DNA of 64,000 nucleotides from assembly GCA_965371355.1 (NCBI GenBank), contig CBDUYD010000001.1:1681-65680 (forward strand). Direction: 5' to 3'. Within the stretch, counting starts at the first letter, position 1, and each line of letters starts with the position of its first letter. The position numbers and the translations under genes were made by a program. Below are positions 9,950-52,176 of the stretch, piece by piece. The notes beneath the pieces are model-generated. The model made no database searches. It was not told the origin of the DNA and was given only the letters and a program-made list of their open reading frames with translations. This DNA comes from an uncultured Ilumatobacteraceae bacterium. GTDB lineage: Bacteria > Actinomycetota > Acidimicrobiia > Acidimicrobiales > Ilumatobacteraceae.

Positions 9950-11635
9950 TCAGTCACCGAGCGCGGCGAGCGCGGCGAAGTCCGGCGCACCCCAACCCGA
10001 GGCCTGGTCGAGACCGACGTGTGCCTCGCAGCAGTCGAGGTCGAACAAGCGGTTGCCGCCGATCGTGATGTCGCGGGCGACGATCGGGTCGCCCCCTCCG
10101 AGGTCCGCTTCGGCATAGATGAGCGGCGTCACGAGGCCCAGGCGGGGGAGGCCCGACTCGTCGCGCGCCTGGTTGACCAGGGCGAGTGCGCCAGAGGCGA
10201 TGGGCGTCGCCGCGGACGTGCCACCGAGCGCGGTCCAGCCGCACTCGTCGGGGCTCGGGCAGTACGACACCGCGTAGCCGGTGGACGAGTCGGCGAACAG
10301 CGCCACGTCCGGGTATGCCCGACCGTCTGCATCGACGAGTGAGTCCTGCCATCGCGGCCGGTCGTAGCGCTCGCTGACGCCGCCACCGCCGGCCCAGCTG
10401 GTGCCGTCGTTCCACACGGTCTCTGCGATGCCGCCACCCCCGACGTCGATCGACGTCCCGCCGACCGCCAGCACCCATGGGCTCGATGCAGGGAAGTGGG
10501 GATCCGCCGACGTGCTCGCGGGATAGCAACCCGCTGCGCCATGGTTGCCGGCCGCGCTCACCACGGTCGTCCCGACCGCGGCGGCGACGAGCAGGAAGTG
10601 CTCGAGGAGTTCGAGGAGGTGTTCCCGAATCTGACCTTCGCACCATCCCAGACTCGCGCTGAGCACGTCGGGTGGTCTTGCGCCGGTGTTCTGCGGGTCG
10701 GTCGCGGCGGCGATCGCGAACACCGGTGAAGCCAAGCCGTGCGCGGTCGTCTGGAACACGTCGATCCTGTCCAGACCGGGCGCGATCGTCGAGAGCAACT
10801 CGATGTCCATCGCCGCCTCGCCCGTCGGCGGGTGCGGCTGGCCCGACTCGACCAGGTGGAGTTCGGGTTCGACCGCGTCGAGACCGAAGCACGCCGTGTA
10901 ATCATCGATCGCCGCCTGGTCGAACGTCGAGACGGTGATCAGCGCCGCGCTGCGGCCCTCGCCGGTGAGCCCGCTCTCGTGCAACCGGTCGATGCCGTAG
11001 GCCGACATCACCGCCTCGAGATCGGCGGCGGCGATCGCCACGGCATCGTCGCATGGTTCCGCGATCGAGCCGGTCGAGCCCGAGTGGGGCACGACGACGA
11101 GGCTGGCAATGGTGGGTTCGACGACCGGCTCCTCGAACCCGATGATCTCCTGTGCGCCGGAGAGTCCGGACGGAACCGATGGCTCGCGCACCGCCTCGAT
11201 CAACTCTGTTCCCGAACCGTTCTCGAACACGGCGAACTCGGTGTCGAACATCTGCGATGCCTGGGCGACCGTCATCGGCGCGCTGATCAGTGTCCGCGAC
11301 GGGTCGATCGACGCTTCGACGCCGGCGTCGTCGAGGAACCCCAGTATCTCGTCGATCGTCGCGTCGTCGGCCCCGAAGCGCTCACCCACTTCGCGTGCGG
11401 TGATGAATTCGCCGTAAGAGGGAGCAACGGGATCGGACACCTCATCGACCAGTTGGGCGAGCCCTACGTCGTCACGCGGAAGGCCCAGCCCGACGAGCAA
11501 GACCGCATCCGGATCCGCCGCGACGACGGCGGCGCCGTCGGGACGGAGCGACTCGATGCTGTCGTCGGAGGTGCACGCGTTGGCCGCGGTGAGGGCGACG
11601 ACGCAGCCGGCCACGCTCAGGAATCGGGAGGTCAT
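9950..11635 (-). CDS. Secreted S53 (sedolisin/kumamolisin-like) serine peptidase, probable lipoprotein
   Basis: Signal/lipobox-like N-terminus MTSRFLSVAGCVVALTAANAC. Pro-kumamolisin-like prodomain. Acidic catalytic region GEAAMDIELL. Serine motif GGTSAATPIASGA. Confidence 0.8.
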   Translation of the reverse strand: MTSRFLSVAGCVVALTAANACTSDDSIESLRPDGAAVVAADPDAVLLVGLGLPRDDVGLAQLVDEVSDPVAPSYGEFITAREVGERFGADDATIDEILGFLDDAGVEASIDPSRTLISAPMTVAQASQMFDTEFAVFENGSGTELIEAVREPSVPSGLSGAQEIIGFEEPVVEPTIASLVVVPHSGSTGSIAEPCDDAVAIAAADLEAVMSAYGIDRLHESGLTGEGRSAALITVSTFDQAAIDDYTACFGLDAVEPELHLVESGQPHPPTGEAAMDIELLSTIAPGLDRIDVFQTTAHGLASPVFAIAAATDPQNTGARPPDVLSASLGWCEGQIREHLLELLEHFLLVAAAVGTTVVSAAGNHGAAGCYPASTSADPHFPASSPWVLAVGGTSIDVGGGGIAETVWNDGTSWAGGGGVSERYDRPRWQDSLVDADGRAYPDVALFADSSTGYAVSYCPSPDECGWTALGGTSAATPIASGALALVNQARDESGLPRLGLVTPLIYAEADLGGGDPIVARDITIGGNRLFDLDCCEAHVGLDQASGWGAPDFAALAALGD

Positions 11636-11764
11636 GACGCCCGGGTCGAGTGGTTCTCGGCGGTCGAGTCACGAATCATGATGGGGCGCCGTGCCGGTTC
11701 GGGTAGCCGTCACATCGGCCATCCTTGCCGACACGAACACCGAGGAACGATCGCTGTCCGCGAT

Positions 11765-11801
11765 GATCGCAGGCCGGCGCGATCTGCGCCCGCCTGCGAT
11801 C
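11765..11801. promoter_or_regulatory. Imperfect palindrome/hairpin in the divergent intergenic region
   Basis: GATCGCAGGC-c-GGCGC-gatct-GCGCC-c-GCCTGCGATC: 10 bp, a C.C mismatch, then 5 bp around a 5-nt loop. It lies 35 nt upstream of ATG 11836 and about 130 nt upstream of the S53 peptidase start. Confidence 0.5.
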
Positions 11802-11835
11802 TGTCCCGAGGTGCCACGCCGGGTACTCTGGGCCG

Positions 11836-12129
11836 ATGGAGATCGAGATCACCGATGACGCTCGGCGCGTACTCGAAAAGAAGGGCGGAACGATGTCGAT
11901 CGACCTCATCCGCCCGACCGGTTGAGGCAAGGTCGCCGAGGTGTCGGTCGACACCAACGTCAAGGGAAAGAACCTGCAGGCCTACCGCAAGCTCCGTCAC
12001 GGCCGCTATCAGATCCTGATCACGCCCGCCCTCGTCGGGATGGTCGACTCGATGCGCGTCGTCACCAAGGGCAAGCTCACCCGTTCCCTCAAGGTCGAGT
12101 TCACCCCCTCATCCACCTGCGCGTTCTGA
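11836..12129 (+). CDS. Candidate HesB/IscA-like selenoprotein (97 aa) with in-frame TGA at 11923-11925 read as Sec
   Basis: ATG 11836 and the listed 62-aa ORF (11941-12129) share one frame, interrupted only by TGA 11923-11925. G/C-ending codons number 23/29 before and 62/67 after the TGA by my count. A SECIS-like hairpin sits downstream. The peptide MEIEITDDARRVLEKKGGTMSIDLIRPTG-U-GKVAEV...TPSSTCAF resembles A-type carrier proteins. A pseudogene or sequencing error cannot be excluded. Confidence 0.5.
11940..11955 (+). promoter_or_regulatory. SECIS-like stem-loop GGUGUC-GGUC-GACACC
   Basis: 6-bp stem with a GGUC tetraloop starting 15 nt after the TGA. The remembered E. coli fdhF minimal SECIS is GGUUGCA-GGUC-UGCACC, with the same loop and the same GGU...CACC stem ends. 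The loop begins 21 nt after the UGA here versus 19 nt in fdhF. Confidence 0.5.
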
Positions 12130-12180
12130 TCTCGTGAGGATGTTGCGCCGCATGTGCGCAACATCCTCACGAGATCAGAA
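12124..12180. repeat. Perfect 25-bp inverted repeat with a 7-nt loop (hairpin / possible terminator)
   Basis: TTCTGATCTCGTGAGGATGTTGCGC-cgcatgt-GCGCAACATCCTCACGAGATCAGAA. The left arm contains the TGA stop of the 11836-12129 ORF. No U-tract follows. Locally lower GC than the surroundings. Confidence 0.85.
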
Positions 12181-12255
12181 CGGGAGGCAGGAGGTAGGAG
12201 GCAGGAGGGAGGACCGGCCGGGGAGGGAGATCGGGGGAGGGAGTAGCGTCGGGGG
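12181..12255 (+). other. Polypurine (AGGAGG-rich) tract containing a canonical G-quadruplex motif
   Basis: Almost pure G/A on the + strand: GGGAGGCAGGAGGTAGGAGGCAGGAGGGAGG...GGGGAGGGAGATCGGGGGAGGG. The G4-type motif GGGG-a-GGG-agatc-GGGGG-a-GGG is at 12220-12241. The tract ends at ATG 12256. Confidence 0.6.
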
Positions 12256-51951: not shown

Positions 51952-52028
51952 GGTGGCCATAGCTCAACAGGTAGAGCACCAGGTTGTGATCCTGGCGGTT
52001 GGGGGTTCAAGTCCCCTTGGCCACCCCA
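51952..52028 (+). tRNA. tRNA-His (GTG) with G-1 and encoded CCA
   Basis: Cloverleaf drawn by hand. G-1 plus acceptor GTGGCCA/TGGCCAC. D arm GCTC/GAGC. Anticodon arm CCAGG-TTGTGAT-CCTGG. T arm GGGGG-TTCAAGT-CCCCT. Discriminator C followed by CCA. Confidence 0.93.
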
Positions 52029-52095
52029 CGCAGCAATGCGGCAGACCTGGCGGGGTGCGCAGCGAAGCATCGCTTGCTACCCTGTCAGGTCGCTT

Positions 52096-52167
52096 GCTTC
52101 TCTAGCTCAATGGCAGAGCAGTGGACTCTTAATCCATTGGTTCAGGGTTCGAATCCCTGGGGAAGCA
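52096..52167 (+). tRNA. tRNA-Lys (CTT)
   Basis: Acceptor GCTTCTC/GGGAAGC. D arm GCTC-AATGGCA-GAGC. Anticodon arm GTGGA-CTCTTAA-TCCAT. T arm CAGGG-TTCGAAT-CCCTG. No encoded CCA. Confidence 0.93.
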
Positions 52168-52176
52168 CACGGTCGG

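What the first reader, a model, noticed from the sequence alone, without database searches (positions are those of the whole stretch)
11836..12129. Split small ORF with an in-frame TGA and an fdhF-like SECIS: candidate HesB/IscA-like selenoprotein
An ATG at 11836 opens a frame that is interrupted only by TGA at 11923-11925. The same frame then continues through the listed 62-aa ORF to the stop at 12127-12129. Codon bias stays coding-like on both sides: 23/29 G/C-ending codons before the TGA and 62/67 after it, by my count. Fifteen nt after the TGA lies GGUGUC-GGUC-GACACC (11940-11955). As I recall it, the E. coli fdhF minimal SECIS is GGUUGCA-GGUC-UGCACC. The loop is identical, the stem ends match (GGU...CACC), and the loop begins 21 nt after the UGA here versus 19 nt in fdhF. 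The joined peptide has the layout of A-type Fe-S carrier/HesB proteins. Its ...IRPTG-U-GKV... segment sits where IscA has its first invariant Cys (...SGCSG...), and there is a C-terminal Cys (SSTCAF). HesB-like proteins are a described prokaryotic selenoprotein family. Selenoproteins are uncommon in Actinomycetota, and standard callers would report only a fragment.
Basis: partly seen in the sequence, partly recalled or inferred. Interest (0 to 1): 0.75.

Follow-up and report, generated by a model that had tools for sequence, protein, structure and literature searches.

The report
Small HesB-fold selenoprotein gene with SECIS
This is very probably a real 97-codon gene whose internal TGA encodes selenocysteine, guided by a conserved RNA hairpin just downstream; it belongs to a catalogued small (seleno)protein family with an iron-sulfur-carrier-like fold, which gene callers routinely cut in two.

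Summary
ATG 11836, in-frame TGA 11923-25, stop 12127-29 and the hairpin GGUGUC-GGUC-GACACC (11940-55) are all present.

Sixty-one related genomes, mostly Ilumatobacteraceae/Acidimicrobiia, keep the same in-frame TGA with conserved coding sequence on both sides. Ten full-length homologues carry Cys (TGT/TGC where the DNA was read) at that position and have lost the hairpin.

The six hairpin codons are invariant at synonymous sites. Distant members change the stem only in pair-preserving ways, including one U-A to G-C swap. The loop GGUC and its spacing match E. coli fdhF.

The window holds no Sec machinery. Published tables list SelD, SelA and SelB in Ilumatobacter, including a genome that carries this gene.

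The family assignment needs correcting. The protein is not a member of the described HesB-like selenoprotein family: it has no PF01521 or TIGR01911 match and no UxGP motif. It is a sub-threshold, divergent branch of the "CC/Se motif family" (NF041239/PF28096).

Verdict: a genuine but mis-annotated selenoprotein, and a new member of a known kind.

The parts
11836..12129 (+). Complete selenoprotein CDS: 97 codons plus stop. MEIEITDDARRVLEKKGGTMSIDLIRPTG-U-GKVAEVSVDTNVKGKN...SSTCAF.
   Evidence: The start codon column is ATG/GTG in 53/53 orthologues. In many relatives the RNase E/G match ends about 5 nt upstream of this start. Full-length Cys homologues of 100-102 aa are colinear with it.
11923..11925 (+). 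In-frame TGA, read as selenocysteine (residue 30).
   Evidence: TGA is present in all 62 motif-bearing sequences (the window and the 61 loci), in 53/53 clean orthologues and in six distinct distant members. Cys (TGT/TGC) sits at this column in the full-length homologues. It is the conserved Cys column of NF041239: C30A costs 5.2 bits.
11940..11955 (+). bSECIS apical hairpin: stem 11940-45 / 11950-55, loop GGUC 11946-49. It lies inside the nucleotide-invariant block 11938-11957 (GAGGTGTCGGTCGACACCAA).
   Evidence: It is the RNAalifold consensus. Codons 35-40 use one codon each in 53/53 sequences, while neighbouring invariant residues use 2-4 codons. 84/84 cells are paired, with 1 compensatory and 4 wobble-preserving changes. 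The loop is identical to fdhF. The Cys forms lack it.
12118..12120 (+). TGC, the invariant C-terminal-tail Cys (C95) and probable partner of Sec30.
   Evidence: Invariant in the 24-sequence alignment A1. Aligned with the C-terminal Cys of 10 Cys-form homologues. It lies in the low-confidence, flexible tail of the model and outside the NF041239 model.
12122..12182 (+). Very strong stem-loop overlapping the stop codon; likely a transcript 3' end or stabiliser.
   Evidence: dG -55.9 kcal/mol, z -10.7. Strong hairpins of different sequence sit at the same place in several relatives. No T-run follows.
11636..11835 (.). 200-nt divergent intergenic region between the S53 peptidase gene (minus strand) and the selenoprotein start.
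   Evidence: No sigma-70-like site was found on the + strand. This spacer exists only in the window and L045; elsewhere the gene abuts rne.

Best explanation
Positions 11836-12129 are one gene for a 97-residue selenoprotein.

Decoding (inferred mechanism): during translation the UGA at 11923-25 is decoded as selenocysteine. SelB carrying Sec-tRNA(Sec) binds the mRNA hairpin GGUGUC-GGUC-GACACC, which starts 14 nt downstream. The same codon, TGA, terminates the gene at 12127.

Protein: it is a divergent actinobacterial branch of the 'CC/Se motif family' (NF041239/PF28096). It adopts a HesB/IscA (A-type carrier)-like fold. Sec sits in the beta2-beta3 loop, topologically where IscA has Cys35. An invariant Cys sits on a flexible C-terminal tail.

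Function (inferred, about 40% confidence): the Sec30/Cys95 pair, probably across a dimer as in IscA/SufA, ligates a metal or Fe-S cluster, or cycles through a selenenylsulfide. That would make the protein a small carrier or redox module.

Shown: the gene structure, TGA conservation, the Sec/Cys pair, the RNA constraint and the fold.
Inferred: SelB dependence, Se incorporation and the biochemical role.
For: 1. TGA is in frame in all 61 related genomes, with the N-terminal 29 residues and the C-terminal part both conserved down to about 50% identity.
2. An exhaustive HMMER search of 1.84 billion representatives finds 49 relatives. Almost all are fragments starting just after the TGA. Two full-length proteins have Cys at that column. 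A profile search adds eight more Cys forms, all G-C-G-[KG]. The DNA shows TGT/TGC and no hairpin there.
3. All six hairpin codons are nucleotide-invariant in 53 sequences, whereas 16 of 17 other invariant-residue codons vary synonymously. My Fisher arithmetic gives p of about 7e-5.
4. Distant members change the stem only compatibly: U-A to G-C (L062), U-G (L065, L068) and G-U (L065, L077). 84/84 cells are paired, against 80% and no covariation for the competing MFE hairpin.
5. The loop GGUC and the spacing match the verified fdhF SECIS.
6. 50 of 60 orthologues also end in TGA, so TGA is a normal stop in these genomes.
7. Peng et al. 2016 list SelD+, SelA+ and SelB+ with 10-15 selenoproteins for I. 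coccineus and I. nonamiensis YM16-303; the latter carries the gene (L034).
8. All 31 tested members align end to end with NF041239. The Cys forms carry PF28096.
9. An AF2 model (pLDDT 83) matches SufA, IscA, HI1723, DsrR and Aq_1857.
Against: - No tRNA-Sec, selA, selB or selD is in the window or in 1.09 Mb of relatives' flanks. The source genome's Sec trait is therefore unverified.
- Within the close clade the hairpin is invariant, so covariation rests on a handful of distant sequences; 33 of 500 shuffles reach the observed score.
- The stem lacks the bulged U of fdhF.
- NF041239 scores (19-36 bits) are below the 40-bit cutoff, and the 'CC'/'CxxU' second Cys is missing.
- The modelled protein is a Cys homologue at about 39% identity, not the window's own protein.
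- hhalign to IscA is weak (probability 6%).
- Two distant members (L065, L074) lack the C-terminal Cys, which weakens a strict Sec-Cys pair model.
- There are no expression or Se-incorporation data.
Confidence: 0.85

Rival explanations
1. The gene is a member of the described 'HesB-like' selenoprotein family (TIGR01911/PF01521), with Sec replacing the first IscA cysteine.
For: The fold of a Cys homologue is SufA/IscA-like. A weak hhalign alignment puts C/U30 on IscA Cys35. There is a C-terminal Cys, as in IscA.
Against: No PF01521 or TIGR01911 hit at E<=10 or E<=1 for 31 members. No PDB IscA/SufA sequence is hit by family profiles at E<=10. The motif is G-U-G-K, not UxGP. Only one C-terminal Cys is invariant, instead of C-x-C. 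The only consistent sequence match is NF041239.
Confidence: 0.07
2. The TGA is read through, or recoded, by something other than Sec: near-cognate Trp/Cys/Arg/Gly insertion or a suppressor tRNA. In that case the hairpin merely stimulates read-through.
For: No Sec machinery could be shown for the source genome. No proteomic evidence exists.
Against: The Sec/Cys alternation at the column is the hallmark of Sec, not of Trp or Gly. The hairpin has the fdhF loop GGUC at fdhF-like spacing. The genus has SelA, SelB and SelD and other selenoproteins. TGA is the ordinary stop of the same gene in 50/60 orthologues.
Confidence: 0.05
3. The TGA is a true stop. The locus is a pseudogene, or two separate small ORFs: a 29-aa peptide and the 62-aa GTG-11941 ORF that callers report.
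For: All public gene calls are such fragments.
Against: A pseudogene would not keep TGA, both flanks and the frame across 61 species-level genomes at 50-97% identity. Cys homologues are continuous 100-102-aa proteins. The predicted fold needs both halves: beta1-alpha1-beta2 lie before residue 30. The 'GTG start' is simply part of the invariant hairpin.
Confidence: 0.02
4. The invariant 20-nt block reflects only amino-acid or other DNA-level constraint, such as a protein-binding site or codon preference, and is not a SECIS.
For: The encoded EVSVDT is also invariant at the protein level in the clade. Covariation data are few.
Against: Neighbouring equally invariant residues vary at synonymous sites while the six hairpin codons never do. 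The Cys forms change exactly these residues (SEAAIDT, PEIALDT) and lose pairing. The stem changes seen in Sec forms are all pair-preserving.
Confidence: 0.03

Closest known systems
[quoted passage not shown]
   Same: It is the only sequence family matched, and the match is end to end (residues 1-88 against model positions 1-89 of 91) for all 31 members tested. The Cys homologues of this clade carry PF28096. The Sec sits on the model's conserved Cys column. Both are small proteins of about 90-100 aa with both Sec and Cys forms.
   Different: Scores of 19-36 bits are below the 40-bit cutoff. The motif is a lone G-U-G, without the adjacent Cys ('CC', model column 31) or the Cys at -3 ('CxxU', column 27) that the model favours. 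An extra invariant C-terminal-tail Cys lies outside the model. Sec forms greatly outnumber Cys forms. The clade is actinobacterial (Acidimicrobiia) rather than Moorella/Firmicutes.
HesB-like selenoprotein (TIGR01911, motif UxGP) and A-type Fe-S carriers IscA/SufA/ErpA (PF01521)
   Same: Same predicted fold: SufA 2d2a TM 0.71; IscA 1s98 TM 0.66-0.68. Both have a reactive Cys/Sec in the loop after beta2 and a Cys on the flexible C-terminal tail. The N-terminal pattern I-x-[IL]-[TS]-D-x-A is similar.
   Different: There is no detectable HMM-level homology. Structure-aligned identity is 12-19%. The motif is G-U-G-K, not UxGP or S-G-C-S-G. There is one tail Cys rather than C-x-C, so a monomer offers 2 ligands, not 3.
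E. coli fdhF SECIS (bacterial SelB-binding hairpin)
   Same: Apical loop GGUC and stem ends GG...CC. The loop begins at nt 21 after the UGA here, against nt 19 in fdhF. Both elements lie in the coding sequence immediately 3' of the UGA.
   Different: The stem here is 6 perfect pairs without the bulged U of the fdhF upper stem. No conserved lower helix was found: the alternative and extended pairings are broken in relatives. No Rfam model matches.

Membership tests
Bacterial selenoprotein gene (Sec-decoding UGA) | In-frame UGA conserved in orthologues, with coding conservation on both sides | tested here: met
   All 62 motif-bearing sequences have TGA. In 53/53 clean orthologues codon 30 is TGA and both flanks are conserved. 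Six distinct distant members also have it.
Bacterial selenoprotein gene (Sec-decoding UGA) | Homologues with Cys aligned to the UGA codon | tested here: met
   P0125, P0136 and P0139-P0146 all read G-C-G-[KG]. The DNA shows TGT (L066) and TGC (L070).
Bacterial selenoprotein gene (Sec-decoding UGA) | Stem-loop (bSECIS) shortly downstream of the UGA with G/U in the apical loop, under RNA-level selection | tested here: met
   Hairpin 11940-55, loop GGUC. Synonymous sites are invariant. 84/84 cells are paired, with 1 compensatory change. The hairpin is lost in the Cys forms.
Bacterial selenoprotein gene (Sec-decoding UGA) | selA, selB, selC and selD in the same genome | not testable with these tools
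   None is in the 64-kb window or in the loci flanks. The rest of the source genome is unavailable. Literature: SelD, SelA and SelB are present in I. coccineus and in I. nonamiensis YM16-303, which carries the orthologue L034.
Bacterial selenoprotein gene (Sec-decoding UGA) | Selenium actually incorporated at the UGA position | not testable with these tools
   Needs 75Se labelling or mass spectrometry.
HesB-like selenoprotein / A-type carrier (TIGR01911, PF01521) | Significant match to the PF01521 or TIGR01911 model | tested here: not met
   No hit at E<=10 (Pfam) or E<=1 (NCBIfam) for the window protein or 30 relatives.
HesB-like selenoprotein / A-type carrier (TIGR01911, PF01521) | Sec motif UxGP (PMC13188914) | tested here: not met
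   The window reads G-U-G-K-V. Relatives read U-G-[KG]. Motif source.
HesB-like selenoprotein / A-type carrier (TIGR01911, PF01521) | HesB/IscA three-dimensional fold | tested here: met
   AF2 model of the Cys homologue P0125: pLDDT 83.4, pTM 0.72. Ten of the top 11 PDB matches are SufA, IscA, HI1723, DsrR, Aq_1857 or 2p2e. The window's own sequence could not be submitted.
HesB-like selenoprotein / A-type carrier (TIGR01911, PF01521) | Sec/Cys equivalent to IscA Cys35, plus C-terminal C-x-C ligands | tested here: inconclusive
   hhalign places C/U30 on IscA C35, but with probability 6% and E 0.006. The loop position is the same in the model. Only one tail Cys is invariant; C-x-x-C or CC occurs in some members only.
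CC/Se motif family (NF041239 / PF28096) | Score at or above the curated cutoff (40 bits) | tested here: not met
   The window protein scores 24.8 bits. The best of the 24 clade members has E 3.2e-7. The Cys form P0125 scores 35.6 bits.
CC/Se motif family (NF041239 / PF28096) | Colinear full-length alignment to the model | tested here: met
   Residues 1-88 align with model positions 1-89 of 91. All 31 members match.
CC/Se motif family (NF041239 / PF28096) | Cys/Sec at the signature column | tested here: met
   In-silico probing of the HMM with P0125 variants: C30A costs 5.2 bits.
CC/Se motif family (NF041239 / PF28096) | Second Cys of the 'CC' / 'CxxU' motif | tested here: not met
   The model rewards Cys at column 31 (+4.0 bits) and column 27 (+2.8 bits). 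The window has Gly31 and Pro27. Motif source.
CC/Se motif family (NF041239 / PF28096) | PF28096 hit | tested here: inconclusive
   Precomputed PF28096 hits exist on all 11 full-length homologues. The local Pfam copy lacks the model, so the window protein itself could not be scored.
fdhF-type bacterial SECIS | Apical loop GGUC and a UGA-to-loop distance close to fdhF | tested here: met
   In the window the loop GGUC starts at nt 21. In fdhF it starts at nt 19, verified in E. coli genomes.
fdhF-type bacterial SECIS | Bulged U in the upper stem | tested here: not met
   The stem is 6 contiguous Watson-Crick pairs with no bulge.
fdhF-type bacterial SECIS | Binding by SelB | not testable with these tools
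   Needs a binding assay or an in vivo reporter.

The most novel reading that the evidence does not exclude
This would be a distinct, Sec-dominant actinobacterial clade. The CC/Se family would turn out to be a remote, two-ligand offshoot of the A-type Fe-S carrier (HesB/IscA) fold. In Ilumatobacteraceae it is fixed inside the rne-rplU-rpmA housekeeping cluster and carries one of the most rigidly conserved bacterial SECIS elements known (20 nt invariant at about 50% protein identity). That would imply an essential selenium-dependent metal, Fe-S or chalcogen-trafficking step that has not been described, and that no current annotation captures.
Probability: 0.3. Interest if true: 0.5.

Novelty: new member of a known kind. 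Interest (0 to 1): 0.35.

Why it matters
- **Annotation.** Every public gene call I found for the Sec form is a fragment: 61-77-aa pieces among the close relatives and 29-aa N-terminal stubs next to the C-terminal fragment. The ones that carry a name, including the NCBI entries, are called 'hypothetical protein'. The curated NCBIfam cutoff misses the clade. The gene is thus a concrete case for lowering or splitting that model and for rescuing a widespread Acidimicrobiia selenoprotein.
- **Fold.** Linking the functionally blank CC/Se family to the SufA/IscA fold gives a testable hypothesis: a metal or Fe-S ligand pair, or a selenenylsulfide.
- **SECIS.** The invariant hairpin gives a clean SECIS consensus for finding further selenoproteins in this class. 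Rfam has no model that detects it.

Tried and rejected
- **Single-sequence MFE fold.** It prefers another hairpin (11932-52). I rejected it because GCA and ATC variants break it and it shows no covariation.
- **Lower stem pairing UGA with UCA (11960-63).** Not conserved: codon 42 varies GTC/GTG/GTA.
- **Pfam and PDB sequence searches for HesB/IscA.** Negative.
- **Rfam, gathering and permissive thresholds.** No SECIS. The only hits are spurious miRNA-type matches to the 3' palindrome.
I worked around this with a C-terminal profile (A3) and a Cys homologue (A7).
- **The listing of cluster members with 'U' in the sequence.** I therefore could not check whether RefSeq already holds a full-length U-protein.
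- **Motif and Pfam scans for selA, selB and selD, and ARAGORN for tRNA-Sec.** Nothing in the window or the loci.
- **Scan for other TGA + GGUC-hairpin genes.** None in the window. One artefact (L040) in 1.1 Mb of relatives.
- **Neighbourhood as a clue to function.** rne, the MBL/alkyl-sulfatase-like gene and rplU are syntenic within the family. Distant members have unrelated neighbours: DUF302, DUF305, AhpC, PPK2. No functional inference was drawn.

Full report
**1. Observation**

The sequence is exactly as described.
- ATG is at 11836 and the only in-frame interruption is TGA at 11923-25.
- The frame then continues through the caller-style 62-aa ORF (GTG 11941) to TGA 12127-29.
- G/C-ending codons number 23/29 before the TGA (my count) and 62/67 after it (GC3 0.93).
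- GGTGTC-GGTC-GACACC lies at 11940-55, 14 nt after the TGA.
- The recalled fdhF element is right. TGA + 11 nt + GGTTGCA-GGTC-TGCACC matches under fdhF in 5,420 of 5,426 E. coli genomes, with 5,413 records at >=99% identity. The loops are identical and begin at nt 19 (fdhF) and nt 21 (here).
- In the whole window this is the only TGA followed by a >=5-bp stem with a GGTC loop and open, high-GC3 frames on both sides.

**2. Is the TGA conserved, and what replaces it?**

A first protein search returned 89 relatives, and every one is a fragment. There are 86 C-terminal pieces starting at the V/M of 'VSVDTNVKGKN' and 3 N-terminal pieces ending at '...IRPTG'.

A scan of one genome per species found 61 loci. 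They are mostly Ilumatobacteraceae/Acidimicrobiales MAGs, plus cultured Ilumatobacter nonamiensis YM16-303.
- All carry TGA at the same codon, with both flanks conserved down to about 50% identity.
- A few loci have unrelated frameshifts elsewhere (L044, L049, L060, L061).

An exhaustive HMMER search of 1.84 billion representatives, using a profile of the post-TGA part, found only 49 relatives.
- Nearly all again begin right after the TGA.
- Two full-length proteins, P0125 and P0136, have Cys at the Sec column.
- A profile search added eight more. All ten read G-C-G-[KG] and also keep the C-terminal Cys.
- Their DNA shows TGT/TGC.

This is the textbook Sec/Cys signature. Fifty of 60 orthologues also terminate in TGA, so TGA is an ordinary stop in these genomes and needs a local signal to be recoded.

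**3. The RNA element**

In 53 clean orthologues, codons 35-40 (GAG GTG TCG GTC GAC ACC) each use a single codon. Sixteen of the 17 other invariant-residue codons vary at synonymous sites. My Fisher arithmetic on that table gives p of about 7e-5.

RNAalifold selects that hairpin. The single-sequence MFE prefers a competing hairpin at 11932-52, but that one is only 80% paired across relatives and shows no covariation.

DNA of six distinct distant members shows the TGA retained and only pair-preserving stem changes:

| Locus | Stem change |
|---|---|
| L062 | U-A to G-C |
| L065, L068 | U-A to U-G |
| L065, L077 | G-C to G-U |

- Overall, 84/84 cells are paired, with one compensatory pair and four extra pair types.
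- The shuffle control is only moderately strong (33 of 500), because the element is so conserved.
- L076 has one extra codon between the UGA and the stem, so the spacing tolerates +3 nt.
- The Cys forms have diverged in exactly these codons (SEAAIDT, PEIALDT) and cannot form the stem.
- Differences from fdhF: no bulged U and no conserved lower helix. Rfam has no matching model.

**4. Sec machinery**

None is in the window.
- ARAGORN and Rfam find only tRNA-His and tRNA-Lys.
- Pfam on 25 ORFs shows housekeeping genes: mreC, PBP2, rodA, rne, rplU, PEPCK, recG, smc, ftsY/ffh, recA, hflX and others.
- There is none in the 1.09 Mb of relatives' flanks either.

The source genome therefore cannot be tested here. 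Peng et al. 2016 (PMC5029168) list SelD+, SelA+ and SelB+ for I. coccineus and I. nonamiensis YM16-303 in Table S1, and 15 and 10 selenoproteins in Table S2. The latter genome carries the orthologue L034. A 2026 preprint reports universal Sec machinery in another Acidimicrobiia order, Actinomarinales.

**5. What family?**

Pfam PF01521 (HesB/IscA) and TIGR01911 (the described HesB-like selenoprotein, motif UxGP) are not matched by any of 31 members. PDB sequences give nothing.

The only consistent hit is NF041239, 'CC/Se motif family (seleno)protein'.
- The match is colinear over the full length but scores 19-36 bits, against a cutoff of 40.
- The full-length Cys homologues carry precomputed PF28096 'CC_Se_fam' hits. 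The local Pfam copy lacks that model.
[quoted passage not shown] Peng's Table S3 lists that family in 8 organisms.

I probed the HMM with point variants of P0125:

| Variant | Change in score |
|---|---|
| C30A | -5.2 bits |
| G31C | +4.0 bits |
| G27C | +2.8 bits |
| C99A | 0 |

So the window's Sec occupies the family's conserved Cys column. However, the clade has a reduced G-U-G motif without the neighbouring Cys residues. Its invariant tail Cys lies outside the model.

**6. Fold and likely function**

The AlphaFold2 model of the Cys homologue P0125 has pLDDT 83.4 and pTM 0.72.
- It is a beta-alpha-beta unit followed by a beta-sandwich.
- Residue 30 lies in the beta2-beta3 loop.
- The Cys-bearing C-terminal tail is disordered.

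Foldseek against the PDB returns SufA (TM 0.71, E 1.4e-4), HI1723, IscA (three entries), DsrR, Aq_1857 and 2p2e as ten of the top eleven hits. A weak hhalign alignment to E. coli IscA places C/U30 on IscA Cys35; I verified that IscA sequence against 1r94.

By analogy (inference), Sec30 and the tail Cys form a ligand or redox pair, probably across a dimer. Some distant clades end in HxHxxxCxH tails, which hints at metal binding. Two distant members lack the tail Cys.

**7. Context**

In 48 loci the gene lies downstream of RNase E/G, and in many the RNase match ends about 5 nt before the start codon. It is followed by an MBL/alkyl-sulfatase-like gene in 39 loci and then by rplU. In the genus Ilumatobacter, rplU follows directly. 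Only the window and L045 have an S53 peptidase gene inserted upstream. Distant members have unrelated neighbours, so context gives no functional clue.

**8. Verdict**

This is a genuine, systematically mis-called selenoprotein gene with a well-supported SECIS. It is a new (sub-threshold, reduced-motif, Sec-dominant) member of an already catalogued family, in a genus already known to use Sec.

The novel elements are modest: the HesB/IscA-fold link for the CC/Se family, the extremely rigid SECIS, and the fixed position in the rne-rplU cluster. Interest 0.35.

Noticed in passing
window 12122-12182: A near-perfect stem-loop of about 27 bp overlaps the gene's stop codon (dG -55.9 kcal/mol, z -10.7), with no T-run after it. 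Several relatives (L012, L038, L015, L016, L037, L025) have equally strong hairpins of unrelated sequence at the same place. That suggests a position-conserved terminator or 3' stabiliser.
   Followed up: partly
window 12183-12245: A long purine-rich tract with repeated GGAGG/AGGAGG units lies between the hairpin and the ATG (12256) of the MBL/alkyl-sulfatase-like gene.
   Followed up: no
window 11920-11922 (codon 29, GGT): The Gly codon immediately 5' of the UGA is GGT in 53/53 Ilumatobacteraceae-clade sequences, despite about 90% G/C at third positions. Distant Sec members use GGC, TCC or GCC. This may be a UGA-context effect on recoding efficiency. It remains unexplained.
   Followed up: partly
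P0147 (JGI metagenome protein): This homologue shows 'W' both at the Sec column and at the C-terminal Cys column, while keeping the hairpin-encoded EVSVDT. It is probably a TGA=Trp gene call. The second TGA could be the true stop or a second Sec.
   Followed up: no
L068, L072, L077 and fragments P0116-P0130: Distant Sec-containing clades end in His-rich tails (HRHGAHCNH, HRHTSACGH, DHFHSPACRH) instead of the acidic DDxCxI tail, which suggests metal binding. L065 and L074 lack the C-terminal Cys altogether.
   Followed up: partly
window 9950-11635 (minus strand): A sedolisin/kumamolisin-type S53 peptidase gene (Pro-kuma_activ + Peptidase_S8) is inserted between rne and the selenoprotein gene. 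Of the 61 related loci, only L045 shares it.
   Followed up: partly
L058 (WHTH01000005.1, labelled Pseudonocardiaceae MAG): This is the only locus not labelled Acidimicrobiia or as unclassified Actinomycetota. It carries a typical Sec form with the identical hairpin. Possible explanations are a binning or taxonomy error, or horizontal transfer.
   Followed up: no
L062/L063 and L068: DUF302-domain genes lie within a few kb of distant Sec-form members, in two otherwise different contexts. L063 also has DUF305, and L070 (a Cys form) has an AhpC/Redoxin gene nearby. This is too sparse to interpret.
   Followed up: no
window 51953-52168: tRNA-His(GTG) and tRNA-Lys(CTT) are the only tRNA genes in the window. 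There is no tRNA-Sec.
   Followed up: yes
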